Positions 6,992-23,875 of a DNA stretch of 24,000 bases are shown in pieces. The translations under genes were made by a program, and so were the position numbers. The stretch is from Paludibacterium yongneupense DSM 18731 (GTDB lineage: Bacteria > Pseudomonadota > Gammaproteobacteria > Burkholderiales > Chromobacteriaceae). The stretch lies in contig NZ_AUGZ01000005.1 of the NCBI RefSeq assembly GCF_000422925.1, forward strand, positions 384,081 to 408,080, in the 5' to 3' direction. A model generated the notes under the pieces. That model did not search any database. It was not told where the DNA came from and worked only from the letters and a program-made list of their open reading frames with translations. Positions within the stretch are counted from its first letter, which is position 1. Each line of letters begins with the position of its first letter.

Positions 6992-7018
6992 CATGCGGCC
7001 GCCCGGGGCGGCCGCATG
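6992..7018. terminator. GC-rich perfect hairpin between convergent genes (possible bidirectional terminator)
   Basis: CATGCGGCCGCC / GGCGGCCGCATG forms a 12-bp perfect stem with a 3-nt loop, starting 1 nt after the Lrp stop and 14 nt from the lipoprotein stop. There is no U-tract on either side, so intrinsic termination is uncertain. Confidence 0.4.
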
Positions 7019-7031
7019 CGGATACGGGGGA

Positions 7032-7496: not shown

Positions 7497-7733
7497 AATG
7501 TTTTTAGGTTAAAAATACATATAGATTATGCCTAAAAATTTATGAAAAAACACGTAAAGATGCGCAGGCACACCACCGGCCAGGCCTCGGGGCATGAAAG
7601 CGCTCCCTCCTCTCATCCGAGCGGCAGAAGTCGCCCTTGGGACGCGCCGGAATTCGCCGGGTACCCGGCCGACTAGCGCTTTGCGCTCCTCCCCTGGGCG
7701 GCCGTTCTCGCCATTCGCGCGGATCCGCGGCCT

Positions 7734-7761
7734 GCCGCGCCTCGATTGGCGCGGCATTTTC
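7734..7761 (+). terminator. intrinsic-terminator-like hairpin in the long non-coding region upstream of the PTS operon
   Basis: GCCGCGCC (7734-7741) / GGCGCGGC (7748-7755) forms an 8-bp perfect GC stem with a 6-nt loop, followed by ATTTTC. No plus-strand gene lies upstream, so its role (attenuator, sRNA end, or nothing) is unknown. Confidence 0.3.
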
Positions 7762-7935: not shown

Positions 7936-7962
7936 TGTAACCGGTTTCTGAGACCGGTTTCA
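7936..7962. promoter_or_regulatory. two abutting LacI-family operator sites upstream of the PTS operon
   Basis: TGTAACCGGTTTCT (7936-7949) and TGAGACCGGTTTCA (7949-7962) share one base. Both fit the TGnAAnCGnTTnCA LacI/GalR operator pattern and the exact copies at 17162, 17193 and 21160. They lie 70-96 bp upstream of the IIB ATG. Confidence 0.7.
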
Positions 7963-8031: not shown

Positions 8032-8340
8032 ATGGTAAAAATATTCCTGTGTTGCGCCGCTGGGATGTCGACCAGCATGGTTGTCAGCAAGATGCGCCAG
8101 GCAGCCGCCCAACAAGGCGTCGAAGCCGAGATCACCGCAGTCAGCATGGAGGACTTCGATCGGACCTTGCCCGACTATGACTGCTGCCTGCTCGGACCTC
8201 AGATCAAATACAAACTCGACGAGTTCAAGACCAAGGGCGCCGCCCTCAACAAGCCGGTATCGGTCATCAACTCGATGGACTACGGCATGATGCGCGGCGA
8301 CAAAATCCTGAAAGAAGCGCTCGCGCTCCTGGCCCACTAA
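8032..8340 (+). CDS. PTS lactose/cellobiose-family EIIB component
   Basis: ATG 8032 has GGAGGAG (8019-8025) 6 nt upstream. MVKIFLCCAAGMSTSMVVSKM carries the phosphorylatable Cys in the C-x-x-G-M-S-T-S loop. Length is 102 aa, typical of ChbB/CelA-type IIB. The upstream part of track ORF 7594..8340 is not protein-like. Confidence 0.92.
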   Translation: MVKIFLCCAAGMSTSMVVSKMRQAAAQQGVEAEITAVSMEDFDRTLPDYDCCLLGPQIKYKLDEFKTKGAALNKPVSVINSMDYGMMRGDKILKEALALLAH

Positions 8341-8359
8341 ACAGAACAGGGAGCCCGCC

Positions 8360-9685
8360 ATGTCAACTAGCCAAGCCTTTTTCGAGTTCATCGAAAACAC
8401 CATCACGCCGATAGCCGCCCGCGTCGCATCCCAGCGCCATGTCATGGCCGTCCGCGACGGCTTCATTGCCGCCATGCCATTCATGATCGTCGGTTCCTTC
8501 TTGCTGGTTTTTGCCTTCCCGCCATTTTCCGCCGACACCCAGCTGGGGTTCGCCCAGTGGTGGTTACGCATCGCCAAGGAATATCAGGGGCAGATTCTGA
8601 CCCCGTTCAATATGAGCATGGGGATCATGGCCTGTTACATCAGCGCCGGGATCGCTTATAACCTCGCGCAGAGTTACAAGCTCGAGGCATTCCCGATTTC
8701 GATGCTGGGTTTGATGGCATTCCTGCTCATCGCCGCACCGCTCAAGGATGGCATGCTGCCGGCCTCCAATTTGGGCGGAACCGGCATTTTCACCGCCATC
8801 ATCGTCGCCATCTTCACCGTCGAACTGGTCCGTTTGCTCAAGGCATACAACATCGGAATCAAACTGCCCGAGCAGGTGCCGGAGAAAATCCGCCACTCGT
8901 TCAACATGCTGATTCCGGCCCTGGTCATCATCCTCACGCTCTACCCTCTGAATCTGTTCATCCAGCATCAGTTCGGCATGCTTCTACCCGAAGCGATCAT
9001 GGCCATTTTCAAGCCGCTGGTTTCGGCCAGCGACACCCTGCCTGCGATTCTGCTCGCAACCCTGCTATGCCATATTCTCTGGTTTGCCGGCATTCACGGA
9101 GCGGCCATCGTCGGCGGCATTCTGCAACCGTTCTATCTGGTCAACCTCGGTGCGAACCAGGCCGCGCTGGCAGCGGGCCATCCGCTGCCGCATGTGTTTA
9201 TCGAAGCGTTCTGGAGTTTCTTCATCACGCTAGGCGGTTCGGGCGCCACGCTGGGACTGGTTTTACTGTATATGCGCAGCAAGTCGGCGCACCTTCGCTC
9301 AGTCGGGGGGCTGGGCATCGTGCCCGCGCTGTTCAATATCAATGAACCCATCATTTTCGGCAGCCCGATCGTGATGAACGCGACCATGTTCATTCCCTTC
9401 GTCTTCGCCCCGATGATCAACGCCACGATCGCCTACTTCGCCATCCAGGCCGGTCTGGTCGGCAAAGTCATCGCCCTCGTGCCGTGGACTGCACCCGCTC
9501 CGATCGGTGCGGCCTGGGGCGCAGGCTGGGTCATGGGCAACGGCATTCTGGTCCTGCTGCTTATCGCGCTCGACCTGCTGATCTATCTGCCCTTCTTCAA
9601 GATTTATGAAAAGCAGTTGCTGGAACAGGAAGCGCTCGAAGAGCAGGACACGCCCGAACACGGCGGCGTCGCTCAAACCGCGTAG
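8360..9685 (+). CDS. PTS lactose/cellobiose-family EIIC permease
   Basis: 441 aa, polytopic. The N-terminus FIENTITPIAARVASQRHVMAVRDGFIAAMPFMIVGSF and the overall pattern are typical of ChbC/CelB-type IIC. GGGAG lies upstream of ATG 8360. Confidence 0.92.
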   Translation: MSTSQAFFEFIENTITPIAARVASQRHVMAVRDGFIAAMPFMIVGSFLLVFAFPPFSADTQLGFAQWWLRIAKEYQGQILTPFNMSMGIMACYISAGIAYNLAQSYKLEAFPISMLGLMAFLLIAAPLKDGMLPASNLGGTGIFTAIIVAIFTVELVRLLKAYNIGIKLPEQVPEKIRHSFNMLIPALVIILTLYPLNLFIQHQFGMLLPEAIMAIFKPLVSASDTLPAILLATLLCHILWFAGIHGAAIVGGILQPFYLVNLGANQAALAAGHPLPHVFIEAFWSFFITLGGSGATLGLVLLYMRSKSAHLRSVGGLGIVPALFNINEPIIFGSPIVMNATMFIPFVFAPMINATIAYFAIQAGLVGKVIALVPWTAPAPIGAAWGAGWVMGNGILVLLLIALDLLIYLPFFKIYEKQLLEQEALEEQDTPEHGGVAQTA

Positions 9686-9758
9686 ACGTCAGACGGTCCG
9701 GCGGCGAAGGCCGGACCGGAACACCCACCCTGTCAGGGTTATACCCGGAGTCACGGTA

Positions 9759-11482
<1,724 letters not shown>

Positions 11483-11549
11483 GGCAGATGCCGTCGATGC
11501 CGGGGGGCGTCGGCGGCAGAATGACCCGACATGACAAAAGGAGAGTGAA

Positions 11550-11810
11550 ATGTTTGAATCCAGCGTAATGATTGCGGCGGAGAACGGATTCCACACCCGT
11601 CCGGCTTCGATCTTCGTCAAAGCAGCCAAAGCGTATCAAAGTGAAATTTCCGTCATCAGCGGCGAAAAATCAGCGAACGGCAAAAGTCTGTTCAAACTGC
11701 AGACCCTGGGTCTGAGCAAGGGCACGACCATCACCATTCGTGCCGACGGCCCCGACGCCGAACAGGCCGTGAGCGCCCTGAGCGAACTCGTCGAAACCAT
11801 AGAGGATTGA
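11550..11810 (+). CDS. ptsH: phosphocarrier protein HPr
   Basis: 86 aa. His15 sits in ENGFHTRPA and Ser46 in ANGKSLFKLQTLGL. AAAGGAGAG lies upstream of ATG 11550. Confidence 0.93.
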   Translation: MFESSVMIAAENGFHTRPASIFVKAAKAYQSEISVISGEKSANGKSLFKLQTLGLSKGTTITIRADGPDAEQAVSALSELVETIED

Positions 11811-11825
11811 AGAGCGACCGCGACC

Positions 11826-13583
11826 ATGACATATATCGAACCGCTCAGCGGGATTCCCTGCTCTCCCGGCGTCAGCATCGCCCGCGCGCTTGTGATAGGC
11901 GATGACGATATCGTCATCAATCCGACGCCGATCGAAGATGGCGCGGTCGAAGAAGAGATCGCGCGTTTTCACGCCGCCCGCGACGCGGCGCTCAGTCAAG
12001 TGCGGGCGATCTCGGACCACCTGGCCCTGTCCGGCAAGGTGGAACAGCAGGCGATTTTCGAAGGCCATCTTGTGCTGCTCGAAGACGAAGAACTGGAGCA
12101 CGATGTACTCGCGCTGATCCGCCAGTCGCACTACCGCTCCGAGCAGGCTATCCACGAGGCGATCGAGAGCTATGCCAAAATGGTGTCCGATCTGGACGAC
12201 CCTTATCTGCGCGAGCGCGCGACCGACTGCCGCGACATCGGCGCGCGCCTGATCCGCAATGTACTCGGCGTGCAGACCTTCGACCTCGGCTCGATCGCAG
12301 AAGACACGATACTGGTCGCGCGCGACTTCACGCCATCGCAGACCGCGCAGATCAGCCTCGAGCATGTCAAGGGATTGATCTCCGAACTCGGCGGCCGGAC
12401 CTCGCACTCCGCGATCATGGCGCGCTCGCTGGAGCTGCCGGCCATCGTCGGCGTCAAAAACGCGACCCTGCATATCCGTAGTGGCGACCTGATCGCGCTC
12501 GACGTCGAGCACAATCAGATCTGGGTGCGGCCGGATGCGGCCAGGCTGGCCGACATCCGCGCGGTTCAGCGGCAGTACGCGCTGCAGCGCGAGAAATGGC
12601 AGGCTTTGCGCGATTTGCCTGCGCTCACGCGCGACGGACATCGTGTCGAGTTGTGCGCGAATATCGGCACGGTCCGCGACGCCGATAGCGCGCAAGCCAA
12701 CGGGGCTGAGGGCATAGGCTTGTATCGCACCGAGTTCCTGTTCATGGACCGCCCGACCCTGCCGGGCGAAGAAGAGCAATATCTGGAATACAGTGCGATT
12801 GCGCGCGCGATGTCCGGCAAGGCCGTCATCGTGCGCACGATGGATATCGGTGGCGACAAGGAACTGCCGTGCCTGGACTTCCCCAAAGAACTCAACCCGT
12901 TTCTCGGATGGCGCGCGATCCGCATCTTCTTCGACCGCCCCGACATCATGCTGCCGCAGCTGCGCGCCATCCTGCGCGCCTCGGCCCACGGCCCGCTGCG
13001 CATCATGTTTCCGATGGTCGCTGCCGTTGAAGAGTTTCGCGCGCTGAAAGCCCAGGTCTGCGCCCTCAAGGACGAGCTGCGCGCAGACGGGGTCCCTTTC
13101 GACGAGGCGATCCCGCTCGGTGTGATGATAGAAACGCCGGCGGCGGCGGTGCTCGCGCGCTTTCTCGCACGGGAAGTCGATTTTTTCAGCATCGGCACCA
13201 ACGATCTGACCCAGTACACCCTGGCGGTCGACCGCGGCAATGAACAAATCGCCCGGATGTACCAGCCACTGTCGCCGGCCGTGCTCGGCCTGATCCAGCA
13301 GGTGATAGACGCCAGCCACGCCGCAGGCAAGTGGACCGGCATGTGCGGCGAACTGGCCGGCGACGAGCGCGCGACCGCGCTGCTGGTCGGCATGGGCCTG
13401 GACGAATTTTCGATGAGCGCCATCGCGCTGCCGCGCATCAAGGCCATCGTGCGCAGTCTGGACTATGAGGCGGCGCGGCAGTTGGCGGTACAGGTACGCG
13501 AATGCGCGACGCTGGAAGAGGTCGAAGACAGGCTGCAGGCCTTCGCACGCCAAAACAGCGGCGCCTCGGAGGCTTACGAGTGA
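11826..13583 (+). CDS. ptsI: phosphoenolpyruvate-protein phosphotransferase (PTS Enzyme I)
   Basis: 585 aa. N-terminal LSGIPCSPGVSIA, phospho-His loop GGRTSHSAIMARSLELPAIVG, and a PEP-utilising C-terminal TIM-barrel region (EGIGLYRTEFLF ... FFSIGTNDLTQYTLAVDR). Confidence 0.95.
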   Translation: MTYIEPLSGIPCSPGVSIARALVIGDDDIVINPTPIEDGAVEEEIARFHAARDAALSQVRAISDHLALSGKVEQQAIFEGHLVLLEDEELEHDVLALIRQSHYRSEQAIHEAIESYAKMVSDLDDPYLRERATDCRDIGARLIRNVLGVQTFDLGSIAEDTILVARDFTPSQTAQISLEHVKGLISELGGRTSHSAIMARSLELPAIVGVKNATLHIRSGDLIALDVEHNQIWVRPDAARLADIRAVQRQYALQREKWQALRDLPALTRDGHRVELCANIGTVRDADSAQANGAEGIGLYRTEFLFMDRPTLPGEEEQYLEYSAIARAMSGKAVIVRTMDIGGDKELPCLDFPKELNPFLGWRAIRIFFDRPDIMLPQLRAILRASAHGPLRIMFPMVAAVEEFRALKAQVCALKDELRADGVPFDEAIPLGVMIETPAAAVLARFLAREVDFFSIGTNDLTQYTLAVDRGNEQIARMYQPLSPAVLGLIQQVIDASHAAGKWTGMCGELAGDERATALLVGMGLDEFSMSAIALPRIKAIVRSLDYEAARQLAVQVRECATLEEVEDRLQAFARQNSGASEAYE

Positions 13584-13704: not shown

Positions 13705-14757
13705 ATGGCCACGATAACCGATGTCTGCCGTGTCGCCGGCGTATCCAAGGCCACGGTGTCGCGGGTGCTCAACAACACCGGCCAGGTCAAGGAAAGCACC
13801 CGTGAAATCGTCATCCAGGCCATACAGGCGCTGGATTACCGGCCCAACACCCTGGCCCAGGCGCTCGCCAACCAGCGCTCCGACACCATAGGCCTGATCA
13901 TCTCCGATTTCGCCGGCGGCTATTTCGGACGGCTGCTGCGCCAGGCGACGCGCAGCGCGGACGAAGCCGGCATGCAATTGATCGTGACCGACGGCCATGA
14001 AGATGCGGAGCGCGAGCGCAAGGCCATCGACATGCTCGTGCATCGCCGCTGCGATGCCATCGTGCTCTACAGCCGCTGCATGGGGGATGCCCAGCTCACG
14101 CAATTGACGCGCGAGCTGCCGGTTCCGCTGATCGTATTGAACCGCTACCTGCCCGAGGCTGCCGAGCGTTCGGTCGTCTTCGAGCAGTCCGGTGCGGCGC
14201 GGATGGCGACCGAACATCTGATTGCACTCGGCCATCAGCGCATCGCCTGCATCACCCCCAAGCTGGCTTCGCGCACCGGCCAGCTGCGCTTGCAGGGCTA
14301 TAAGGACGCGCTCAACGCTCACGGCATCGCACTCGACGAAGATTTGATCAGCGCAGGCGCGTTTTCCCCGTCAACCGGCTACGAGGCATGCAGCAAGCTG
14401 CTGCAGACGGGCAAATCCTTCACCGCCCTGCTCTGCTGCAGCGACATGATGGCCGAAGGGGCCTATCGCGCGCTGGCCGAACGCGGGCTGAAAATTCCCG
14501 AAGACGTCTCGGTATTCGGTTTCGACAACGATCCGGCCACGGCCTACATGATTCCGGCACTCTCCACTGTGAAGCTGCCTATCAGTGAAATGACCCGGCA
14601 GGCGATCCAGCAGGCGGTCAAACTCTCGAACGGGCTGCCGGTCTCGCCGATCCCGCCCTTCATCGGTCAGCTGATCCTGCGCGAATCGGTGGCCAGCGCC
14701 TCCGGGCAGGTCTCGCAGGAAAAACTCGCGCCTCCGACCGAGATCGAAGACGACTGA
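13705..14757 (+). CDS. LacI-family transcriptional repressor (predicted regulator of the operator sites in this window)
   Basis: ATG 13705 has GAGGA 7 nt upstream. The HTH is MATITDVCRVAGVSKATVSRVLNNTGQVKESTREIVIQAIQALDYRPN, followed by a periplasmic-binding-protein-like sugar domain. The first 80 codons of track ORF 13465.. overlap the ptsI end and are not LacI-like. Confidence 0.9.
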   Translation: MATITDVCRVAGVSKATVSRVLNNTGQVKESTREIVIQAIQALDYRPNTLAQALANQRSDTIGLIISDFAGGYFGRLLRQATRSADEAGMQLIVTDGHEDAERERKAIDMLVHRRCDAIVLYSRCMGDAQLTQLTRELPVPLIVLNRYLPEAAERSVVFEQSGAARMATEHLIALGHQRIACITPKLASRTGQLRLQGYKDALNAHGIALDEDLISAGAFSPSTGYEACSKLLQTGKSFTALLCCSDMMAEGAYRALAERGLKIPEDVSVFGFDNDPATAYMIPALSTVKLPISEMTRQAIQQAVKLSNGLPVSPIPPFIGQLILRESVASASGQVSQEKLAPPTEIEDD

Positions 14758-15689
14758 AACGCCGCATCCAGCTGTGGGGCCCCGCGCATATCGCTTGCGA
14801 CCTGGCGCAGCCAGTTGGCGAGCGCCTGGTAGCGCGGACGCTGGGCGTGATCGCGCGAACAGCACAGACTGTAGCTGCGCTCGGCCGGGATCGCTTCGGT
14901 GAAAGGCAGAGTCAACTCCCCTCTGAGCACGGCCGGTTCAACCAGATGCCAGCGCCCCATGGCGAGCCCCATGCCGTGCTTGGCCGCCTCGATCGCGACC
15001 GCGTGCTGATTGAAGACATACTTGCGATTGCGGTGCGGCAATTCGATACCGACCACCGTGCTCCATTGAGTCCACTCCTGTGCCAGATCGCGGTTCTCTA
15101 TCGATTCGGTGCAGTGCAGCAAGGAACAGCCGCGCAAATCGCGCCGTCCGGTCAAGCCGTGATCGAGCGCGTAGGCCGGACTGCACACCGGCAACAGCCA
15201 TTCGTCGAACAACGGCCAGACCTGCAAGTGCGGCATGTCGGAACGGCCATAGTGAACGGCCATATCGATAGGATCGGCTTCGAAATCAGGCAAGCCGCTC
15301 TGCGTCTGAAACACCAGATCCAATGATCGATACTGGGATTTGAAGCCCTGCAGCAGCGGCATCAGCCACAATTGCCCGAAAGCCGGCGGCAGACCGATGA
15401 CCAGGGTGCCCCGCAACTCCTGAAAACGGATATCGGCGATGACTTCGTTGATATGCTGCAACGAAACGGACAAGGCGGCCAGCAACTGTTCGCCCTCGGC
15501 CGTCAGCGACAGTCGGCGCGAGAGGCGCAAGAACAATTTGAACCGCAGCATCGCTTCGAGCCGCTGCACGCGCTGGCTGATCGCCCCCTGGGTCAGATGC
15601 AGCTCCTCCGCCGCACGGGTAAAGCTCGAATGCCGTGCGGCGACTTCGAATGTATGCAGCAGAGCCAGCAGGCTTTGTTCAACGAGCAC
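14667..15689 (-). CDS. LysR-family transcriptional regulator (GcvA-like)
   Basis: HTH LLALLHTFEVAARHSSFTRAAEELHLTQGAISQRVQRLE followed by a LysR substrate-binding domain. The preferred start is GTG 15689 (AGGGGGA 4 nt upstream); the track start GTG 15731 adds 14 non-conserved residues. The 3' end overlaps the LacI gene 3' end by 91 bp. Confidence 0.85.
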   Translation of the reverse strand: MLVEQSLLALLHTFEVAARHSSFTRAAEELHLTQGAISQRVQRLEAMLRFKLFLRLSRRLSLTAEGEQLLAALSVSLQHINEVIADIRFQELRGTLVIGLPPAFGQLWLMPLLQGFKSQYRSLDLVFQTQSGLPDFEADPIDMAVHYGRSDMPHLQVWPLFDEWLLPVCSPAYALDHGLTGRRDLRGCSLLHCTESIENRDLAQEWTQWSTVVGIELPHRNRKYVFNQHAVAIEAAKHGMGLAMGRWHLVEPAVLRGELTLPFTEAIPAERSYSLCCSRDHAQRPRYQALANWLRQVASDMRGAPQLDAAFQSSSISVGGASFSCETCPEALATDSRRIS

Positions 15690-15739
15690 AGCATCCCCCT
15701 TTCCGTTCCGTTTCCGGTGTCCCCAAACCACGCGCGCGA

Positions 15740-15790: not shown

Positions 15791-17125
15791 TTACATCAGA
15801 TGGCGCGCGCAGTACTCTTTGAACTGCGGCAGATAACGGATGTTCTCGCGAATCGTTTCATCCAGCGCCGTCTCCAGCACCTGCCCGGTCTTGACCAGCG
15901 GATTCAGGTTCAGGGCGCGCAGGGCCGACTGATAACTTCCGGTCACCGCCGCATCGATGGTGAACCGTTCGTAGGCCTTCATCAACACCAGCATGGCCTC
16001 GGTGTCTTCATCGAAGCGCGCCACATTGAGCGGCAGCGGGCCGGCGCGGGTTATCAGCGACGTGGTCTCGATCGCGCAATCGTCGGGCAGGCAGGCGATG
16101 GTGCCGTTATTGCGCACATTGACATGCATGAGCACGTGCTTGTCGTTGTAAATCGCGCTCATCAAATCACATGCCGCGTCGGAGTAATACTGACCGCCGC
16201 GCCCTTCGAGTTCGACCGGCTTGCTGTACAGGGACGGATTTGCATAGATCTCGAACAGCCGGGTTTCCAGCGCCTTGACCACTTCGCCGCGGGTGCCCTC
16301 CTTTTCGGCTTCCTCGACGAAATGGGTATAGGTGTCGTCGGCCTGAAAATAGTAGCGATGATAGGGGCAAGGAATCTGGCGCCGCTGTTCAAGCAATTTA
16401 CGCGGCCACTGCGCGTGCGGAATGTTTTTCGGGTTGAACGCTTCGTTGTCTTCGAGAAACAGTTCCAGAACCTCGGGCAGCACATCCTTGCCATGCAGCA
16501 TGACCTGGCGCGCAAAAATAAAGTGGTTCAGACCCGACACCTGCAGCACAACGTCCTTTTCCTCTGCCTGCAAGGCCTTGGCGATCCCCTTCTGCATCAG
16601 CACCGGCACATTGCACAAGCCAACCGCCTTGACTTTGGAATGACGCAAGATGGCCTCGGTCACGATGCCCGACGGGTTGGTGAAATTCAACAACCAGGCA
16701 TCCGGGCACAGCTGTTCCATTTCATGACAGATGTCCAGCACCACAGGAATCGTGCGCTGTGCCTTGGTAAAGCCGCCGAGGCCGTTGGTTTCCTGGCCCA
16801 GCATGCCGTACTTCAAGGCGATGCGCTCATCGCGGATCCGCGCTTCGAGCAAGCCGACACGAAATTGCGAACAGACAAAATCGGCGCCGGCGAGCGCCGC
16901 CTTGCGATCGCGAGTCAGCACCACCCGGGTATCCAGGCCCGCATGCTCGATCATGCGCCGTGTCAGCGCGGCGATGATTTCCGCCTTATGCCAGCCGTCA
17001 TCGATATCGACCAGACACAATTCGCCTATCGACAGTTCTCCGCGCCGGGCGATAAGACCATCGACCAATTCCGGGGTATAGCTGGAGCCGGCGCCTATCA
17101 CGACCACCTTGATTTTGCCTTGCAT
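15791..17125 (-). CDS. GH4 6-phospho-beta-glucosidase (CelF/ChbF/LicH type, NAD+/Mn2+-dependent)
   Basis: MQGKIKVVVIGAGSSYTPELVDGL N-terminal NAD fold and the metal-binding Cys context AVGLCNVP. Length is 444 aa. GAGGAG lies 7 nt upstream of ATG 17125. Confidence 0.9.
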   Translation of the reverse strand: MQGKIKVVVIGAGSSYTPELVDGLIARRGELSIGELCLVDIDDGWHKAEIIAALTRRMIEHAGLDTRVVLTRDRKAALAGADFVCSQFRVGLLEARIRDERIALKYGMLGQETNGLGGFTKAQRTIPVVLDICHEMEQLCPDAWLLNFTNPSGIVTEAILRHSKVKAVGLCNVPVLMQKGIAKALQAEEKDVVLQVSGLNHFIFARQVMLHGKDVLPEVLELFLEDNEAFNPKNIPHAQWPRKLLEQRRQIPCPYHRYYFQADDTYTHFVEEAEKEGTRGEVVKALETRLFEIYANPSLYSKPVELEGRGGQYYSDAACDLMSAIYNDKHVLMHVNVRNNGTIACLPDDCAIETTSLITRAGPLPLNVARFDEDTEAMLVLMKAYERFTIDAAVTGSYQSALRALNLNPLVKTGQVLETALDETIRENIRYLPQFKEYCARHLM

Positions 17126-17161: not shown

Positions 17162-17175
17162 TGTAACCGGTTTCA
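17162..17175. promoter_or_regulatory. LacI-family operator (exact TGTAACCGGTTTCA)
   Basis: Lies 37 bp upstream of the GH4 ATG, in the GH4 / membrane-protein divergent region. Identical to the sites at 17193 and 21160. Confidence 0.75.
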
Positions 17176-17192
17176 AAAGACAACAAGCTAAT

Positions 17193-17206
17193 TGTAACCG
17201 GTTTCA
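17193..17206. promoter_or_regulatory. LacI-family operator (exact TGTAACCGGTTTCA)
   Basis: Its start is 31 bp (about three helical turns) from the start of the 17162 site. It lies 168 bp upstream of the membrane-protein ATG. Confidence 0.75.
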
Positions 17207-17373: not shown

Positions 17374-18075
17374 ATGTATGTATCCCGACTTTTGAAAGGC
17401 GCCGCGGCCGGCGCACGTGCGAACCTGGTGCCCGGCCTGATCCTGCAGTCCGCCGCGGCCATCATTCTGGCTCTCTATTACCTCGCGCCCGGATTGCGTC
17501 CGGGCTTCGAGTTTTTCTCGACACTGAAAACGCAGTGGGGCTATCTGTACTCGGCGCTCACCACGGCGCTATGCGGCGGGCTGGTGCCCTATCTGTTCTT
17601 GCGGCTGACCGGGCGAGGCCAGGCCAGCGCCGGGCGCGAATTGAGTTTCTACCTGCTGTTCTGGGCCTTCCTCGGCATCCAGGTCGATGCGCTCTACCGC
17701 GGCCAGGGTGTGATGTTCGGCAATGACGTGACTCTCGCGGTACTGGCCAAGAAAGTGGCTTTCGATCAATTCGTTTTCACCGCCTTCTGGTCGGTACCGC
17801 TGGCGACGATCTGTTATATGTGGAAAAACGCCGACTACCAACTCGCGGCGCTGCGCCTGCAACTGCGCCGCGAGTTCTTCGTACTGCACCTGCCGACCAT
17901 GGTGGTCTCGGCCTGGCTGATCTGGATCCCGGGGGTTGCCATCATCTACAGCCTGCCTCCGGCCCTGCAGATTCCGATGTTCAGCCTGGTGCAGTGTTTC
18001 TGGTCGCTGCTGGTCGAAGTGCTCAATAGCGCCAAGACGGCCAGCGGCGCGACCCCGGCGCGGATGACCGCGTAA
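17374..18075 (+). CDS. integral membrane protein of unknown function (possibly Mpv17/PMP22-like)
   Basis: ATG 17374 has AAGGAAG upstream. Length is 233 aa with several hydrophobic helices. The blocks AFDQFVFTAFWSVPL and WLIWIPGVAIIYSLPPALQIPMFSLVQCFWSLL resemble Mpv17/PMP22 conserved blocks from memory, unverified. It is followed 42 bp later by the GH1 gene with its own GAGGAG RBS, so co-transcription is likely. Confidence 0.7.
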   Translation: MYVSRLLKGAAAGARANLVPGLILQSAAAIILALYYLAPGLRPGFEFFSTLKTQWGYLYSALTTALCGGLVPYLFLRLTGRGQASAGRELSFYLLFWAFLGIQVDALYRGQGVMFGNDVTLAVLAKKVAFDQFVFTAFWSVPLATICYMWKNADYQLAALRLQLRREFFVLHLPTMVVSAWLIWIPGVAIIYSLPPALQIPMFSLVQCFWSLLVEVLNSAKTASGATPARMTA

Positions 18076-19529
<1,454 letters not shown>

Positions 19530-19577: not shown

Positions 19578-20000
19578 TCAACGGCAGGCGTTAAAATAAA
19601 CGGTCACGTCATCTTTCCCGACCTCGATATTGAGCTGCTCAATCGCCAGAGTCAGCAAATTGGAAAGCGTGATCGACTTCTGCTCGGTGGTGCCAGCGAT
19701 ATCCACCACCGCCTGCGTGGAACCCGCGAGCAGCACGCCGGAAACATAACGCGCATCTTCAAGATCCCACAGGACGTAGTCGTCGATGTTATCGCCAGTA
19801 GAGTAAGTCTCGACGACCCGACTATCCACTTTCGTAAATTGGCTGGCGGCCAGTTCGGCATAGATCTTCTCCGACGTCGGGTAATCGAGTTCCTCCCCTT
19901 GTCGGACAAAGAACATGAAGCGCCATTTCCCGGCAACCGGAAACGGCACCTTGTCCCTGACTTGCGCATGCCCCGAAACCTGCAGAACAAACTTGGCCAT
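19578..20000 (-). CDS. hypothetical 140-aa protein (orphan, lower GC)
   Basis: ATG 20000 has GGAGG 4-5 nt upstream. The sequence MAKFVLQVSGHAQ...DNIDDYVLWDLEDA...VTVYFNACR-stop looks like a soluble globular protein, with no signal peptide or TM segment. The 60 upstream codons in the track ORF are not protein-like. Hand count is 231/423 = 54.6% GC. No family recognised with confidence. Confidence 0.6.
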   Translation of the reverse strand: MAKFVLQVSGHAQVRDKVPFPVAGKWRFMFFVRQGEELDYPTSEKIYAELAASQFTKVDSRVVETYSTGDNIDDYVLWDLEDARYVSGVLLAGSTQAVVDIAGTTEQKSITLSNLLTLAIEQLNIEVGKDDVTVYFNACR

Positions 20001-20162: not shown

Positions 20163-20198
20163 AAAGCGGGCCGGGGGCATGGCCCCCGACCCGCTTTT
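20163..20198 (-). terminator. intrinsic terminator after the SMP-30 gene (bidirectional shape)
   Basis: 16-bp stem with one mismatch (20163-20178 / 20182-20197) and a 3-nt loop. An A-tract lies on one side and a T-tract on the other, so a U-run follows the stem on both strands. It starts 23 nt after the SMP-30 stop on the minus strand. Confidence 0.7.
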
Positions 20199-20220: not shown

Positions 20221-21087
20221 TCAACCGGCGAACTTGACTTCCGGCAGGCCGGCCACGTCCACCTGGAACAGGATGACCGCGCCTTCGTTGGGGTTGGCCG
20301 CCAGTTGTTCCGGCGTCATTTTCTGGCAGGCGCTGGTCACGAACATCGTCTTGTAGTCGGCGCCGCCGAAACACGGCATGGTCGGAATCGATACCGGCAG
20401 CTCGACGGTTTGCAGCAATTCTCCCTGCGGACTGATGCGCAGGATCTTGCCGCCCGCGTACAGCGCGGACCAGTAGCAGCCTTCGCTATCGACCGTACCG
20501 CCGTCGGGACGGCCCCAGCCTTGCGGGACGACGAAGAACTCGCGCTGATTGCTCGCATCGCCGGTCGCCGGGTCGTAATCGCACTGGTAGATGGTCAGGC
20601 CCGGGGTATCGGACCAGTACAGGGTCTTGCCATCCGGGCTGAAGGCCATGCCATTGCAGGTCCAGCTCTTGCCGATCAACTGGCGCACGGCCAGCTTGGC
20701 ATCCAGCTGATAGAAGGTGCCGTAGGAGTCGTCTTTGCGGCCATTCATGGTCCCGGCCACCAGTCGGCCCTGACGGTCGCAACGGCCATCGTTGAAGCGC
20801 TGATGCGGTTTGTCCGCCTCCGGGTCGACGATCGGACGGACGACCGGATTGAGCAGATCGTCGATAAACGCCAGGCCCGACTGCAGTCCCACCACCATGC
20901 CGCCCTTTTCGCGCAAGGCGAAGCAACCGATTTCTTCTTCCAGCTGGATCACATGACGCGAACCGGTAGGCAGATGATGTCCGAGGATCTGGTGTTGCAG
21001 GATATCGACCCACCACAGGGTATTCGTCTGTTCGTCCCAACGCGGGCACTCGCCCAGCTGATAGCGGCCTTCGGATAGTGTTTTCAT
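20221..21087 (-). CDS. SMP-30/gluconolactonase/LRE-family protein (putative cytoplasmic sugar lactonase)
   Basis: ATG 21087 begins MKTLSEGRYQLGECPRWDEQTNTLWWVDI. Further family motifs are RFNDGRCDRQGR, NGMAFSPDGKTLYWSDT and PDGGTVDSEGCYW, which are six-bladed propeller lactonase hallmarks. No signal peptide. The 56 extra N-terminal codons in the track ORF are Arg/Pro-rich and cover the operator site. Confidence 0.88.
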   Translation of the reverse strand: MKTLSEGRYQLGECPRWDEQTNTLWWVDILQHQILGHHLPTGSRHVIQLEEEIGCFALREKGGMVVGLQSGLAFIDDLLNPVVRPIVDPEADKPHQRFNDGRCDRQGRLVAGTMNGRKDDSYGTFYQLDAKLAVRQLIGKSWTCNGMAFSPDGKTLYWSDTPGLTIYQCDYDPATGDASNQREFFVVPQGWGRPDGGTVDSEGCYWSALYAGGKILRISPQGELLQTVELPVSIPTMPCFGGADYKTMFVTSACQKMTPEQLAANPNEGAVILFQVDVAGLPEVKFAG

Positions 21088-21159
21088 CGATCGTCTCGTG
21101 TCAGTAGTAATAAGGCTGCGGTCCATCCGCGGCCCCGGGCGGCGCAAAGGGCAACAAAA

Positions 21160-21173
21160 TGTAACCGGTTTCA
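21160..21173. promoter_or_regulatory. LacI-family operator (exact TGTAACCGGTTTCA) upstream of the SMP-30 gene
   Basis: Exact 14-mer identical to 17162 and 17193. Lies 73 bp upstream of ATG 21087 in the narL-SMP30 intergenic gap. Confidence 0.7.
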
Positions 21174-21284
21174 TGTCTGGCAAGATCATAGCACCGCCGG
21201 ACGGCCCCGCCAAGCGGCGGCAACGCGGCCAGCGATCCCGTTTGCGATCGGTCAACAGACGCCGCCCGCGACGGGGACTCGGGC

Positions 21285-21944
21285 CTAGCCTCCCATGCCA
21301 TGCTCGACCGCGTACACGGCGGCCTGCACCCGGCTGGAAAGGCCGAGCTTCTTGAGAATATTCTGCACATGAATCTTGACTGTGCTTTCGGCCAGATCGA
21401 GATCACGCGCGATCAGTTTATTGCTGTCGCCGCGGGCCAGGCAAGCCAGCACCTCCCTTTCGCGAGCGGTCAAGCGCTCGTGGTCGGCAGCCCCCGCCGG
21501 CGCATTCGCCTGACCGGCCAGGCGAAACTGCTGCACCAGCTTGTCGGTCATGGCTTCCGAGACCACGGCCTCGCCGGCGCAGACGCGACGAATCGCGCCG
21601 GTCAGACTATCGGCATCGATGTTTTTCAGCAAGTAGCCGCGTGCCCCCGCGTGCAGCGCGGCAGCCAGATCGGCAGCGTCCTCCGACACGGTCAGCATCA
21701 GTACCGCCTGAGCCGGATGATCCTGCAGCATCAGGCGCAGCGTCTCCACTCCGCTGAGTCCCGGCATGTTCAGATCGAGCAACACGATGTCGGGCGCCAG
21801 TTCGCTCACCCGCTTGATGCCTTCGCTGCCGTCCGGGGCCTCCCCCACGACATTGAAACCGGGCTGGCGGGTCAGCAGCAAACGCAAACCGCTGCGAAAC
21901 AAGCTATGGTCGTCGACCAGCAGAATCGTGATGGCATCGCTCAT
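21285..21944 (-). CDS. narL: nitrate/nitrite response regulator, NarL/FixJ family
   Basis: ATG 21944 begins MSDAITILLVDDHSLFRSGL. The receiver Asp is in IVLLDLNMPG, and a C-terminal LuxR-type HTH is present (LTAREREVLACLARGDSNKLIARDLDLAESTVKIHVQNILKKLG). The start overlaps the narX stop (ATGA, 21941-21944). Confidence 0.88.
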   Translation of the reverse strand: MSDAITILLVDDHSLFRSGLRLLLTRQPGFNVVGEAPDGSEGIKRVSELAPDIVLLDLNMPGLSGVETLRLMLQDHPAQAVLMLTVSEDAADLAAALHAGARGYLLKNIDADSLTGAIRRVCAGEAVVSEAMTDKLVQQFRLAGQANAPAGAADHERLTAREREVLACLARGDSNKLIARDLDLAESTVKIHVQNILKKLGLSSRVQAAVYAVEHGMGG

Positions 21945-23875
21945 TCTTTTTCTTCTCCTTCCCGCCGCGGCAGGAACAGACGCACCTCGGTGCCGCCGCC
22001 CGGGCCGGGCAGCCAGTCGAGTTCCGCCCCCAGACGCTGGGCGCGTTCTTTCATGATACGCAGGCCGACATGCTGCTCGGGCAACACGGCGGCCGCATCG
22101 AAGCCGCAACCGTCGTCGCACACGGTCAGGCGCACGTCCGTCCCCTGGGCATAGACGACGTCGACCTTGCGCGCGTGCGCGTGTTTACGGACATTGGACA
22201 AGGCCTCCTGCAGAATGAACAGCACCTGCAGTTGCGCATCCGCCGGTAGCGGCGCCCCCTGCCCGCCGGCTTCGAAATGCGTGTCGACGCCGGACTGCTG
22301 ACCGAATTTATCGACCGCGATGCGCATCGCATTGGGCAGGTCGCCCTCTTGTAAACGACTGCGAAAATTCAGCAACAGCTCGCGTACGTCGTCGTAGCTC
22401 TCCTGCACCCCGGCCTTGAGCATGGGGACGATGTCCAGCCCCTCCGCCAGCTGCCCTCGGGTGAGCGAATCCTCCAGCATCTGCACCTGCAGATTCAGGA
22501 AGCTCAAGCCCTGCGCAATGCTGTCATGCAAGCCCTGGGCCAGTAGCCCGCGTTCTTCCGAGACCGCCAGTTCGCGCTCGCGCGCCGCCAGCCTGACGTT
22601 CTCCAGCGCGGTTCCGAGGTGGTTGCCCAGGGTATCCAGCCATTGGCGTTCGCGCGCGCTGAAGGTGCGCGTCGTGCGGAAATGCAGATTGAAGGTGCCG
22701 GTCTGGCGGTTGCGCGCGCGCAGCGGGAATACGCCGAGCTGCAAAAACCCTTCATCAAAGCAACCGGGACGGCGCAAGGGAAGCTGGCGCCGCAGATCGT
22801 AGAGCGTCGCCATGGTCCCGCCGACATTCTCGCTGCACAGACAATCCCCTGGCATCAGGCACTGCTCGGCGGCGATCAGGGCCGGCGACAGGCCGCTGTG
22901 CACCGTCAGAAACGACGCGCTATTGAGAGGATCGAGCGTACGCACGCTGCCGCCATCGGCGCCGAAGCCCTCCATCACCCTGTCCAGGAAACCGCGGCAC
23001 ATCGTCTCGGCATTCTGGGTATCGTTCAAAAAGGCGGCAATATCGTATAACAGGGCCAACTCGCGGTTATGGACATTCAACGCCGCCGTCTTGTCGGCGA
23101 CCCGGCTCTCGAGCGTGGCGTAGGACTCGGCGAGCCGGGCAGCCATGCGGTTGAACCCGGATGCCACCTCGCCGAACTCGTCACCGGATTCGACAGGAAG
23201 GCTGACGCTGAAGTCCTGCTCGGCCATGCGGGCGATCCCCTCGCGCAAGCGGCCGAGCGGGCGAAACACCAGCAGGAACATCAGATATATCTGCGTGACG
23301 GTCCCGACGACCGCCAGCGCCACCAGTAGCATCTGCGAGGCGCGCAACCACAAGGTGTGACGTTCGTTAGTCTGCTCGATGGAGAGCACCAGGCCATCGA
23401 CCTCGTGCACAAACGCATCGAGATCGGTGCGCAAAGCGAGCCAGTCTCCCAGCCGTTCGCCGCCGAGTACCGCCTCGGCGCGCGCAGCGACGTTTTGCTG
23501 ATAATGCCGCTCGACGCGGGCGAAGCGCGCCCGCACGTCGGCGTCGGCCGGCAGGTACAGCGGTCGTCCCGGGTCGCCGTTGCGCAGCAGGGCCAGAGTC
23601 GCGTCGAAACCCCGGCGTTGGCGCAGGATTTCGACGCGCAAGGCCTCATCGGGCGCCACCGCATAACGTTGCAGGGAGAGTCCCAACTGATAGCTTCGCA
23701 TGCGCAGGCTGCCGGCGGCATTGATGGCGGCACCCCCGCCCTCGAGCTGCCACGACAGGTACAACGTGCTGCCGATGGCGAGCAGGCCGAGCAGCAGCGC
23801 ACCGAGCAGCATGGCACTGACCCGGATCGCCAACTGCCGCCGCAGCGGCAGCGCGCTGGCGACGGCCGCCATCAT
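21941..23875 (-). CDS. narX: nitrate/nitrite sensor histidine kinase, NarX/NarQ type
   Basis: Two N-terminal TM segments flank a periplasmic domain with the P-box-like GGAAINAAGSLRMRSYQL. HAMP, a central GAF-like region, the HisKA_3 H-box (GLHDSIAQGLSFL) and the HATPase_c region (N/G boxes) follow. Length is 644 aa. Confidence 0.88.
   Translation of the reverse strand: MMAAVASALPLRRQLAIRVSAMLLGALLLGLLAIGSTLYLSWQLEGGGAAINAAGSLRMRSYQLGLSLQRYAVAPDEALRVEILRQRRGFDATLALLRNGDPGRPLYLPADADVRARFARVERHYQQNVAARAEAVLGGERLGDWLALRTDLDAFVHEVDGLVLSIEQTNERHTLWLRASQMLLVALAVVGTVTQIYLMFLLVFRPLGRLREGIARMAEQDFSVSLPVESGDEFGEVASGFNRMAARLAESYATLESRVADKTAALNVHNRELALLYDIAAFLNDTQNAETMCRGFLDRVMEGFGADGGSVRTLDPLNSASFLTVHSGLSPALIAAEQCLMPGDCLCSENVGGTMATLYDLRRQLPLRRPGCFDEGFLQLGVFPLRARNRQTGTFNLHFRTTRTFSARERQWLDTLGNHLGTALENVRLAARERELAVSEERGLLAQGLHDSIAQGLSFLNLQVQMLEDSLTRGQLAEGLDIVPMLKAGVQESYDDVRELLLNFRSRLQEGDLPNAMRIAVDKFGQQSGVDTHFEAGGQGAPLPADAQLQVLFILQEALSNVRKHAHARKVDVVYAQGTDVRLTVCDDGCGFDAAAVLPEQHVGLRIMKERAQRLGAELDWLPGPGGGTEVRLFLPRREGEEKE

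What the first reader, a model, noticed from the sequence alone, without database searches (positions are those of the whole stretch)
20221..21173. A cytoplasmic SMP-30/gluconolactonase-family gene carries the beta-glucoside PTS operator
The textbook pathway is PTS uptake and phosphorylation, then phospho-beta-glucosidase cleavage. It has no lactonase step. Yet this gene, separated from the PTS genes by about 1.7 kb and by an unrelated orphan gene, has an exact operator copy in its promoter region and its own terminator (20163-20198). The protein starts MKTLSEGRYQLGECPRWD with no signal peptide.

Hypotheses, all speculative:
- (i) The system imports C1-oxidised beta-glucosides or cello-/chito-oligosaccharide aldonolactones, such as those produced by oxidative polysaccharide cleavage.
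- (ii) The enzyme opens a lactone aglycone released by the phospho-beta-glucosidases.
- (iii) It acts on 6-phosphogluconolactone generated from the glucose-6-P burst.

Any of these would be an undescribed extension of a Lac/Cel-family PTS pathway.
Basis: inference. Interest (0 to 1): 0.65.

Follow-up and report, generated by a model that had tools for sequence, protein, structure and literature searches.

The report
Sugar lactonase gene under beta-glucoside repressor
A cytoplasmic sugar-lactone hydrolase gene carries the same repressor-binding site as the neighbouring beta-glucoside uptake genes, and that site is conserved in other bacteria where the gene lies far from them, so beta-glucoside breakdown in these bacteria probably has a lactone-opening step that the textbook pathway lacks.

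Summary

- **The gene.** 20221-21087 (-) encodes a 288-aa SMP-30/gluconolactonase protein. Its closest solved relative is Caulobacter xylonolactonase XylC, and the metal ligands are intact.
- **The site.** An exact copy of the 14-bp palindrome-like site lies at 21160-21173, just downstream of a predicted sigma-70 promoter. The same 14-mer occurs twice in front of the GH4 and AscB-like genes. Two near copies precede the PTS operon.
- **The regulator.** The LacI-family regulator at 13705-14757 has the same recognition helix as E. coli AscG. The ascG-ascF intergenic region carries the same core motif.
- **Conservation.** The site is kept upstream of the lactonase gene in a relative with about 82% DNA identity. 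It is also kept in six Tolumonas-type lineages, including T. auensis DSM 9187. In Tolumonas the gene is not linked to any PTS gene, and the site is the only match in 7-21 kb.

Regulon membership is therefore well supported. The enzyme's substrate is not established. The best-supported idea is hydrolysis of glucono-1,5-lactone-type products, possibly from C1-oxidised cellobiose, because E. coli AscB is needed for growth on cellobionic acid. I file it as a new variant of a known regulon, of moderate interest.

The parts
20221..21087 (-). SMP-30/gluconolactonase-family gene (288 aa), cytoplasmic, XylC/SMP30-type lactonase
   Evidence: PF08450 at 270 bits. Best solved relative 7PLB XylC, E 1.7e-45. 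AlphaFold model pLDDT 95.3; Foldseek TM 0.93-0.96 to XylC and SMP30. Metal triad E13/N145/D195 and substrate residues R97/N99 are conserved.
21160..21173 (.). AscG/CelR-type operator (TGAAACCGGTTACA on the coding strand), 72 nt between it and the ATG
   Evidence: Exact copy of the sites at 17162 and 17193. Conserved in relative L104 and in six Tolumonas-type lineages.
21185..21213 (-). Predicted sigma-70 promoter: -35 TTGGCG (21213-21208), 17-nt spacer, TG-extended -10 TATGAT (21190-21185). The operator would then span about +6 to +19.
   Evidence: Consensus scan. Both hexamers are identical in L104 although the flanks have diverged and 66 bp are deleted upstream. The transcription start is not mapped.
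20163..20198 (-). Strong G+C-rich hairpin after the stop codon; probable terminator with a weak U-tract
   Evidence: Fold -46 kcal/mol, z -3.97; weaker form listed by the scan.
13705..14757 (+). LacI-family repressor (350 aa), AscG/CelR-like; the presumed binder of all five sites
   Evidence: Pfam LacI plus Peripla_BP. 43% identical to E. coli AscG and 52-53% to a Cedecea lapagei protein named 'cryptic asc operon repressor'. HTH AGVSKATVSRVL is invariant with AscG.
7936..7962 (.). Two overlapping near-consensus operators upstream of the PTS operon (TGTAACCGGTTTCT, TGAGACCGGTTTCA)
   Evidence: conserved in L104.
8032..13583 (+). PTS operon: IIB, IIC, IIA (Lac/Cel family), GH1 6-phospho-beta-glucosidase, HPr (11550-11810), Enzyme I
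   Evidence: Pfam and NCBIfam; HPr ORF; same gene order in L104.
17162..17206 (.). Two exact operators (17162-17175, 17193-17206) in the divergent GH4 / orf233 intergenic region
   Evidence: conserved in L104. A 72%-identical LacI locus (L091) has the same site upstream of its GH4 gene.
15791..17125 (-). GH4 6-phospho-beta-glucosidase-type gene
   Evidence: PF02056 and PF11975.
17374..19529 (+). orf233 (membrane protein, no family match) followed by an AscB-like GH1 gene (18118-19529, frameshifted near 18410 in this assembly)
   Evidence: the GH1 gene is intact (469 aa) in L104.

Best explanation
The gene is a single-gene transcription unit. It encodes a cytoplasmic, metal-dependent aldonolactone hydrolase of the XylC/SMP30 type.

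Its sigma-70 promoter is followed directly by one 14-bp AscG/CelR-type operator, which covers roughly +6 to +19. The LacI-family repressor encoded at the end of the PTS operon (13705-14757) binds this site, the two sites before the PTS operon, and the two sites between the GH4 gene and the orf233/AscB-like genes. All four units are therefore switched on together when the inducer releases the repressor. The inducer is most likely a phosphorylated beta-glucoside such as cellobiose-6'-phosphate or its C1-oxidised form.

**Shown here**
- The family, fold and active-site residues of the enzyme.
- The identity of the operator copies.
- Their conservation across genera.
- The shared recognition helix with AscG.

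**Inferred**
- Binding by this particular repressor.
- The position of the transcription start.
- The inducer.

**Proposed role (inferred, about 0.3-0.35 on its own).** The enzyme opens glucono-1,5-lactone-type rings that arise when the system handles C1-oxidised beta-glucosides. Cellobiono-1,5-lactone would be phosphorylated on uptake and cleaved to glucose-6-P plus gluconolactone, which the lactonase converts to gluconate.
For: **Enzyme**
- PF08450 match at 270 bits.
- XylC is the best solved relative, E 1.7e-45, 36% identity, TM 0.93; SMP30 gives TM 0.94-0.96.
- The XylC ligands E18/N146/D196 and substrate residues R99/N101 (PMC8820113) align with E13/N145/D195 and R97/N99. All are invariant in 21 homologues.
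- Beta-proteobacterial homologues at 42-46% identity sit beside GH31, aldose 1-epimerase, SDR and HpcH/HpaI aldolase genes. This is an oxidative sugar pathway in which a lactonase acts on an aldonolactone.

**Operator**
- Three exact and two near copies in 24 kb, against 0.76 expected at 3 or fewer mismatches.
- It lies just downstream of the predicted -10.
- The E. coli ascG-ascF intergenic region holds GGTGACCGGTTTCA and TGAAACCGGTTTCT.
- The HTH AGVSKATVSRVL is identical in the window's regulator, Tolumonas orthologues and AscG.

**Conservation**
- Relative L104 (82-83% DNA identity) keeps all five sites and the -35 and -10 hexamers of the lactonase promoter while the flanks diverge.
- T. 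auensis DSM 9187, T. osonensis and four metagenomic lineages (64-73% protein identity) each have T(A)AAACCGGTT(T/A)CA 59-66 nt before the lactonase ATG.
- That is the only site with 2 or fewer mismatches in 78.6 kb of these loci, where about 0.25 is expected anywhere. In these loci the gene is unlinked to PTS genes.
- Tolumonas has the orthologous repressor (61%) in an IIB-IIC-IIA-GH1 operon preceded by TGTAACCGGTTACA.

**Role**
- E. coli ascB is required for growth on cellobionic acid, and asc is not cryptic on that substrate (PMC4403981).
- The window has an AscB-like gene (56% identity) under two operators.
Against: - No binding or expression data exist.
- The regulator is assigned by proximity and motif only. 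T. auensis has 16 LacI-family factors (supplement of PMC4052901), and relative L104 has a second LacI paralogue next to the operon. Another paralogue with the same motif could be the real binder.
- E. coli AscG also binds sites outside sugar metabolism, including the propionate operon. The SELEX table lists 13 sites, and the propionate link appears in the title of reference 91 (PMC4797297). A site therefore need not mean pathway membership.
- No gluconate kinase, gluconate transporter or glucose dehydrogenase is visible in the window or next to the Tolumonas genes.
- Cellobionolactone hydrolyses spontaneously, so a lactonase may not be needed for that route.
- Homologues at 47-64% identity (an Aeromonadaceae MAG, Psychromonas, Corallincola, Agarivorans, Teredinibacter) are stand-alone genes without the operator. 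The enzyme therefore probably has a general role that was later placed under this control.
- XylC Glu120, which binds sugar O3/O4, aligns with an invariant Lys118 here. The substrate may therefore differ from plain aldonolactones.
Confidence: 0.7

Rival explanations
1. The lactonase removes lactones made from the sugar half of ordinary beta-glucosides. One candidate is 6-phosphoglucono-1,5-lactone, formed from the burst of glucose-6-P. The other is glucono-1,5-lactone, formed from the free glucose released from cellobiose-6'-P. Such lactones resemble the transition state of (phospho-)beta-glucosidases, so clearing them would also protect the co-induced GH1 and GH4 enzymes from inhibition.
For: - The enzyme is of the XylC/SMP30 type, and both of those enzymes hydrolyse D-glucono-1,5-lactone (PMC8820113).
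- An invariant Lys118 stands where XylC has Glu120, which would suit an anionic (phosphorylated) substrate.
- The Tolumonas operon carries a SemiSWEET-type gene, which hints that free intracellular glucose needs special handling.
- Glucono-delta-lactone is a classical beta-glucosidase inhibitor. This rests on my own knowledge and was not verified in the library (one search found nothing useful).
Against: - No SGL-family enzyme is known to me as a 6-phosphogluconolactonase; bacteria normally use DevB- or YbhE-type Pgl.
- No glucose dehydrogenase is seen in the regulon.
- Whether these genomes lack pgl could not be checked.
Confidence: 0.25
2. The enzyme acts on the aglycone rather than the sugar. 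It would open or detoxify lactone or ester aglycones released inside the cell by the phospho-beta-glucosidases, for example coumarin-type or butenolide aglycones of plant glucosides.
For: - The PTS/GH1/GH4 set is typical of aryl-beta-glucoside use, and the AscB-like enzyme is 56% identical to E. coli AscB.
- SGL-fold enzymes can be broad lactonases or esterases. Rhodopseudomonas RPA3624 hydrolyses many lactones, and DFPase and PON share the fold.
Against: - The closest relatives by sequence and fold are sugar-lactone enzymes, not the broad-specificity group, to which identity is only about 20%.
- The sugar-binding residues R97, N99 and aromatic Y210 are conserved.
- Distant homologues lie in sugar oxidation clusters.
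Confidence: 0.12
3. The site is functional but belongs to a different LacI-family paralogue, or to a broader regulon that shares the TGAAACCGGTTTCA motif. In that case the lactonase is not specifically tied to this PTS.
For: - The motif is shared by AscG in E. coli and by several related regulators.
- T. auensis has 16 LacI-family factors.
- L104 has a second LacI gene beside the operon.
- Only 24 kb of this genome was visible.
Against: - In the window the only LacI-family gene is the AscG-like one, and the window lacks the second paralogue.
- The lactonase site is letter-for-letter identical to the two sites in front of the GH4 and AscB-like genes.
- Orthologous repressor loci elsewhere carry the same motif before their PTS or GH4 genes.
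Confidence: 0.12
4. The match is a chance or non-functional sequence, and the gene is regulated independently.
For: The site is a single copy, whereas the other two promoters each have two sites.
Against: - An exact 14-mer is repeated three times in 24 kb.
- It is conserved with the core promoter in L104 while the flanks diverge.
- It is conserved at the same distance from the ATG in six Tolumonas-type lineages, as the only match in 78.6 kb.
Confidence: 0.03

Closest known systems
E. coli AscG repressor and the asc (ascG-ascFB) beta-glucoside operon; RegPrecise CelR/AscG group of LacI-family regulators
   Same: - LacI-family repressor with an identical recognition helix.
- Same operator core, ACCGGTTTC, within a 14-bp palindrome.
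- Two sites at the main promoter, as stated for ascFB in PMC3505978.
- Controls an AscB-like 6-phospho-beta-glucosidase, 56% identical.
- The predicted effector for the group is cellobiose-6-P (PMC4052901).
   Different: - Only 43% identity to E. coli AscG.
- The transporter is a three-component Lac/Cel-family PTS, not the Glc-family IIBC AscF.
- The operon also carries HPr and Enzyme I.
- The regulon includes a GH4 enzyme, an uncharacterised membrane protein and the lactonase. No lactonase is mentioned for CelR/AscG regulons in the text and supplements I could search.
Caulobacter crescentus xylonolactonase XylC and mammalian SMP30/regucalcin (gluconolactonase)
   Same: - Six-bladed beta-propeller fold (TM 0.93-0.96).
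- Planar Glu/Asn/Asp metal triad and Arg/Asn substrate contacts.
- Cytoplasmic location.
- Both hydrolyse aldono-1,5-lactones, including D-glucono-1,5-lactone.
   Different: - 32-36% identity.
- XylC Glu120 aligns with an invariant Lys here.
- XylC lies in an oxidative xylose operon, whereas this gene is a single unit under a beta-glucoside repressor.
Ula system for L-ascorbate (PTS UlaABC plus lactonase UlaG)
   Same: It is a precedent for a PTS-dependent pathway with a cytoplasmic lactone-opening step under a sugar repressor. This rests on established knowledge; the ula operon is described in PMC4324149.
   Different: The PTS family differs, the lactonase fold is unrelated (metallo-beta-lactamase type), and the imported substrate is itself the lactone. 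It is an analogy only.
Cellobionic acid use by E. coli through AscB (Desai et al. 2015, PMC4403981)
   Same: An AscG-controlled phospho-beta-glucosidase is linked to a C1-oxidised cellobiose, with proposed products glucose-6-P plus gluconate.
   Different: No lactonase is involved or proposed there. The transporter is unknown and the biochemistry has not been shown.

Membership tests
SMP-30/gluconolactonase/LRE family (PF08450), XylC/SMP30 three-ligand subgroup | Sequence match to the family profile above the curated threshold | tested here: met
   270.2 bits against a cutoff of 26.3, covering profile positions 1-245 of 246.
SMP-30/gluconolactonase/LRE family (PF08450), XylC/SMP30 three-ligand subgroup | Six-bladed beta-propeller fold | tested here: met
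   Model pLDDT 95.3, pTM 0.92, all-beta with about 24 strands. Top Foldseek hits are XylC, SMP30, AGR_C_1268 and LRE, TM 0.90-0.96.
SMP-30/gluconolactonase/LRE family (PF08450), XylC/SMP30 three-ligand subgroup | Planar metal triad Glu/Asn/Asp (XylC E18, N146, D196) | tested here: met
   Aligned to E13, N145 and D195. All three are invariant in 21 homologues. Ligand residues are taken from PMC8820113.
SMP-30/gluconolactonase/LRE family (PF08450), XylC/SMP30 three-ligand subgroup | Sugar-contacting residues (XylC R99, N101, E120, W211) | tested here: inconclusive
   R97, N99 and aromatic Y210 are conserved, but E120 aligns with an invariant K118, followed by a nearly invariant D119. The loop alignment could be off by one residue.
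SMP-30/gluconolactonase/LRE family (PF08450), XylC/SMP30 three-ligand subgroup | Lactone hydrolase activity | not testable with these tools
   Needs an enzyme assay.
AscG/CelR-type LacI-family regulon | LacI-family repressor with the AscG-type recognition helix encoded in the locus | tested here: met
   PF00356 plus Peripla_BP. AGVSKATVSRVL is identical to E. coli AscG. 43% overall identity.
AscG/CelR-type LacI-family regulon | 14-bp palindromic operator TGAAACCGGTTTCA-like in the promoter region of the target gene | tested here: met
   Site at 21160-21173, 2 mismatches from the perfect palindrome and identical to the sites at 17162 and 17193. The same core is present in the E. coli ascG-ascF region.
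AscG/CelR-type LacI-family regulon | Operator placed where a bound repressor blocks transcription | tested here: inconclusive
   The predicted -10 at 21190-21185 puts the site at about +6 to +19, and the promoter hexamers are conserved in L104. The transcription start is not mapped.
AscG/CelR-type LacI-family regulon | Site conserved upstream of orthologues in other genomes (the comparative-genomics criterion for regulon membership) | tested here: met
   Conserved in L104 and in six Tolumonas-type lineages. Absent from homologues at 64% identity or less outside this group.
AscG/CelR-type LacI-family regulon | Binding by the repressor and derepression by the inducer | not testable with these tools
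   Needs EMSA or footprinting and expression assays.
Lac/Cel-family PTS beta-glucoside pathway | IIB, IIC and IIA of the Lac/Cel family plus a 6-phospho-beta-glucosidase in one cluster | tested here: met
   PF02302, PF02378, PF02255 and PF00232. TIGR00410 lacE subfamily is above its cutoff. GH1a carries the ...LSW..GY.K.Y... motif that I take to be typical of phospho-specific GH1 enzymes; the sequence is, and the motif assignment rests on my own knowledge.
Lac/Cel-family PTS beta-glucoside pathway | A lactonase step as part of the described pathway | tested here: not met
   No such step appears in the literature searched. This is the feature that makes the locus a variant.

The most novel reading that the evidence does not exclude
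AscG/CelR-type beta-glucoside systems, including the long 'cryptic' asc system, are really systems for C1-oxidised cello-oligosaccharides. These are the cellobionolactone and cellobionate made by lytic polysaccharide monooxygenases and cellobiose dehydrogenases. The conserved co-regulated cytoplasmic lactonase would be the missing step that turns the lactone released by the phospho-beta-glucosidase into gluconate. That would define a PTS-based route for oxidised cellulose fragments.
Probability: 0.2. Interest if true: 0.7.

Novelty: new variant of a known kind. Interest (0 to 1): 0.5.

Why it matters
The textbook PTS beta-glucoside pathway ends with phospho-beta-glucosidase cleavage. A lactonase kept under the same repressor in at least two bacterial genera, whether or not it lies near the PTS genes, points to a lactone intermediate or by-product that the standard scheme omits.

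It also gives a concrete handle on two open points. One is what AscG-type 'cryptic' systems are really for. The other is how bacteria consume the oxidised cellobiose produced during oxidative cellulose breakdown.

All of this can be tested with a few enzyme assays and expression measurements in a culturable organism, Tolumonas auensis DSM 9187.

Tried and rejected
- **Linkage in other genomes.** tblastn with the window's PTS, GH1, GH4 and LacI proteins against 80 loci holding lactonase homologues found no PTS or GH neighbour. Conserved gene neighbourhood is therefore rejected as evidence; the support comes from the operator.
- **Context of gamma-proteobacterial homologues.** Corallincola, Agarivorans and Teredinibacter show unrelated, non-conserved neighbours and give no functional clue.
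- **NCBIfam.** No model hit for the lactonase, the Stv-like gene or orf233.
- **Literature.** Searches for a lactonase in cellobiose or beta-glucoside PTS regulons found nothing relevant. A search for lactone inhibition of 6-phospho-beta-glucosidase found nothing usable. The primary AscG paper (PMC2747900) is not held, so the AscG sites were read directly from the E. coli sequence.
- **Organism name.** The genome is GCA_018802645.1 / CP069162.1. No paper cites it and cluster look-ups gave no names. A Niveibacterium hit to orf233 hints at a beta-proteobacterium, but this is not established.
- **Cra/FruR as the binder.** Rejected on spacing. From my own knowledge, the Cra box TGAAAC-GTTTCA is 12 bp with no extra central CG pair, whereas this site is 14 bp.
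- **The second Tolumonas element.** ATGTTACCGGRAACA has 4 mismatches to the operator and is absent from the window, L104 and L097, so it is not treated as part of the feature.
- **Homologue search with orf233.** Only hypothetical proteins came back, with no help on the substrate.
Full report
**1. What is in the window**

The 24-kb window has 61% G+C. Its gene content from 8 kb onward is as follows:

| Coordinates | Strand | Content |
|---|---|---|
| 8032-13583 | + | PTS operon: IIB, IIC, IIA (Lac/Cel family), GH1 6-phospho-beta-glucosidase, HPr, Enzyme I |
| 13705-14757 | + | LacI-family regulator |
| 14667-15731 | - | LysR-type regulator |
| 15791-17125 | - | GH4 glycosidase |
| 17374-18075 | + | 233-aa membrane protein, no family match |
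| 18118-19529 | + | Second GH1 gene |
| 19578-20000 | - | 140-aa Stv-domain gene |
| 20221-21087 | - | The gene in question |
| 21285-23875 | - | narL and narX |

The genome is GCA_018802645.1 / CP069162.1. I could not obtain its organism name.

**2.

- The gene encodes 288 aa starting MKTLSEGRYQLGECPRWD and matches PF08450 at 270 bits.
- The 14-mer TGTAACCGGTTTCA lies at 21160-21173. There are 72 nt between it and the start codon.
- The identical 14-mer occurs at 17162 and 17193, between the divergent GH4 and orf233 genes.
- Two overlapping near copies lie at 7936 and 7949, before the IIB gene.
- With up to three mismatches there are 11 strand-matches where 0.76 is expected, and no shuffle reached that number.
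- A consensus scan finds one promoter-like site in the region: -35 TTGGCG, 17 nt, TG-extended -10 TATGAT, ending 12 nt before the operator. The operator would then cover about +6 to +19, a classic repressor position.
It has only a short U-run on the gene's strand.
- The Stv-like gene downstream has its own ribosome-binding site and a second hairpin in front of it. The lactonase gene is therefore most simply a single-gene unit.

**3. The enzyme**

- The best solved relative is Caulobacter xylonolactonase XylC (E 1.7e-45), followed by mammalian SMP30/regucalcin.
- An AlphaFold model built on 21 homologues has pLDDT 95.3. It superposes on XylC and SMP30 with TM 0.93-0.96.
- The XylC paper (PMC8820113) names Glu18, Asn146 and Asp196 as the planar metal triad. 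It names Arg99, Asn101, Glu120 and Trp211 as sugar contacts.
- In the alignment the triad corresponds to E13, N145 and D195, and the contacts to R97, N99, K118 and Y210. All are invariant across homologues down to 44% identity.
- The Glu-to-Lys change at position 118 is a feature of the clade. It could reflect a different, perhaps anionic, substrate, but the loop alignment is not secure enough to lean on.
- XylC and SMP30 both hydrolyse D-glucono-1,5-lactone.
- In about two dozen beta-proteobacterial loci, homologues at 42-46% identity lie beside GH31, aldose 1-epimerase, SDR dehydrogenase and HpcH/HpaI aldolase genes. This is the pattern of a non-phosphorylative oxidative sugar pathway. The family context is therefore sugar-lactone hydrolysis.

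**4. The regulator and its motif**

- The LacI-family protein is 43% identical to E. coli AscG. It is 52-53% identical to a Cedecea lapagei protein that its source names 'cryptic asc operon repressor'.
- The helix-turn-helix segment AGVSKATVSRVL is identical in the window's protein, its Tolumonas orthologues and E. coli AscG.
- I read the E. coli ascG-ascF intergenic region directly. It contains GGTGACCGGTTTCA and TGAAACCGGTTTCT, matching the two AscG sites mentioned in PMC3505978.
- Orthologous regulator loci elsewhere carry the same motif. It precedes the IIB gene in a Tolumonas IIB-IIC-IIA-GH1-SemiSWEET-LacI operon, and it precedes a GH4 gene in a locus whose LacI is 72% identical.
- The five sites in the window are therefore best read as operators of this AscG/CelR-type repressor. 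Ravcheev et al. predict cellobiose-6-phosphate as the effector of that group (PMC4052901).

**5. The decisive comparative test**

They keep the operator but not the linkage.

- *Close relative.* A metagenomic contig (L104, 82-83% DNA identity) has the same gene order. All five sites are there, and the -35, -10 and operator of the lactonase promoter are unchanged. Meanwhile the bases between and around them have diverged, 66 bp upstream are missing, and two extra genes have been inserted between the Stv-like gene and the lactonase gene.
- *Tolumonas.* Six lineages were examined: T. auensis DSM 9187, T. osonensis DSM 22975 and four metagenomic lineages, at 64-73% protein identity. In these the gene sits among an amino-acid permease, nif accessory genes, a bile-acid-type transporter and a GAPDH-family gene, with no PTS or glycosidase gene within 3-10 kb (the flank fetched for each locus). 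Yet each has T(A)AAACCGGTT(T/A)CA 59-66 nt before the start codon.
- *Statistics.* In the 78.6 kb of these loci, these are the only sites within two mismatches of the palindrome, where about 0.25 is expected anywhere. In the multiple alignment the operator is the only conserved block shared between the window and Tolumonas.
- *More distant homologues.* Those at 47-64% identity have no such site and no conserved neighbours. They come from an Aeromonadaceae MAG, Psychromonas, Corallincola, Agarivorans and Teredinibacter.

The picture is of a widespread stand-alone lactonase that was placed under AscG/CelR-type control in one group of bacteria and has stayed there.

**6. What it most likely does**

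- *Shown:* a competent-looking cytoplasmic aldonolactonase, and a conserved operator shared with the beta-glucoside genes.
- *Inferred:* repression by the AscG-like protein and induction together with the PTS.

For the metabolic role I favour lactones of the gluconolactone type. The most interesting lead comes from Desai et al. 2015 (PMC4403981). E. coli grows on cellobionic acid, ascB is required for that growth, and asc is not cryptic on that substrate. The authors propose cleavage of the phosphorylated compound to glucose-6-P plus gluconate.

The window has an AscB-like gene (56% identity, including the same [15 protein letters not shown] motif) directly under the double operator. If the imported form is the lactone, the phospho-beta-glucosidase would release glucono-1,5-lactone inside the cell, and the lactonase would complete the route to gluconate. 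I put it at about 0.3.

The main alternative is clearance of 6-phosphogluconolactone or gluconolactone derived from ordinary beta-glucosides. This would also protect the glycosidases from a transition-state-like inhibitor. I put it at about 0.25. Action on lactone aglycones is less likely given the sugar-type active site.

**7. Caveats**

- No binding or expression data exist.
- Other LacI paralogues could share the motif. T. auensis has 16 LacI-family factors, and L104 has a second one next to the operon, which the window lacks.
- E. coli AscG has targets outside sugar metabolism.
- No gluconate gene is visible near any of these loci.

**8. Novelty and score**

The parts are known kinds: an SGL-family lactonase, an AscG/CelR-type repressor and operator, and a Lac/Cel PTS. 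What is new is the conserved placement of a lactonase in this regulon. I found no description of that in the library.

I file it as a new variant of a known kind and give it interest 0.5. It would moderately surprise a specialist, it is directly testable in a culturable species, and it could bear on the natural role of 'cryptic' asc-type systems and on bacterial use of oxidised cellulose fragments.

Noticed in passing
window 18118-19529 (+), break near 18408-18412: The AscB-like GH1 gene is split into two frames. A run 'CCC' appears to lack one C: with CCCC the protein reads ...[15 protein letters not shown]... without interruption. The close relative L104 has an intact 469-aa gene. This is either a sequencing error in a homopolymer or a very recent pseudogene.
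   Followed up: partly
window 17374-18075 (+): A 233-aa membrane protein with no Pfam or NCBIfam match lies between the double operator and the AscB-like gene, where E. coli has the transporter gene ascF. Homologues (for example Niveibacterium, 56%) are all 'hypothetical', and one carries a precomputed Mpv17/PMP22 (PF04117) hit. It is conserved in L104. It is a candidate uncharacterised member of the same regulon.
   Followed up: partly
L001 9948-9962, L103, L081, L096, L100 (Tolumonas lactonase promoters): A second conserved near-palindrome, ATGTTACCGGRAACA, lies 6 nt downstream of the operator in five Tolumonas lineages. It is absent from the window, L104 and L097. It differs from the operator at four positions and may be a site for another factor.
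   Followed up: no
L104 1-311, compared with window 7000-7750: The close relative has a second LacI-family gene immediately upstream of the PTS IIB gene (41% identical to the C-terminal part of the window's regulator). The window lacks it and instead has an A+T-rich stretch around 7450-7560.
   Followed up: partly
L087 9632-9898 (Tolumonas PTS operon): A PQ-loop/SemiSWEET-type gene (88 aa) sits between the GH1 gene and the LacI gene of the orthologous Tolumonas operon, at the point where the window has HPr and Enzyme I. It may handle the free glucose released from cellobiose-6'-P.
   Followed up: no
L096 10972-11982; L097 10974-11987: In two Tolumonas-type lineages a GAPDH-family gene follows the lactonase gene by about 105 nt on the same strand. 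In T. auensis and T. osonensis a transporter gene on the other strand is inserted between them. Co-transcription is possible but was not examined.
   Followed up: no
window 19578-20000 (-): The Stv-domain 'orphan' gene is 140 aa, starting at ATG 20000 after a GGAGG, and not the 200-aa ORF that starts inside the hairpin at 20180. It is conserved next to the AscB-like gene in L104.
   Followed up: yes
window 11550-13583 (+): The general PTS proteins HPr and Enzyme I are encoded inside the beta-glucoside operon, between the GH1 gene and the repressor gene. The same arrangement is found in L104. This is an unusual place for ptsHI.
   Followed up: no
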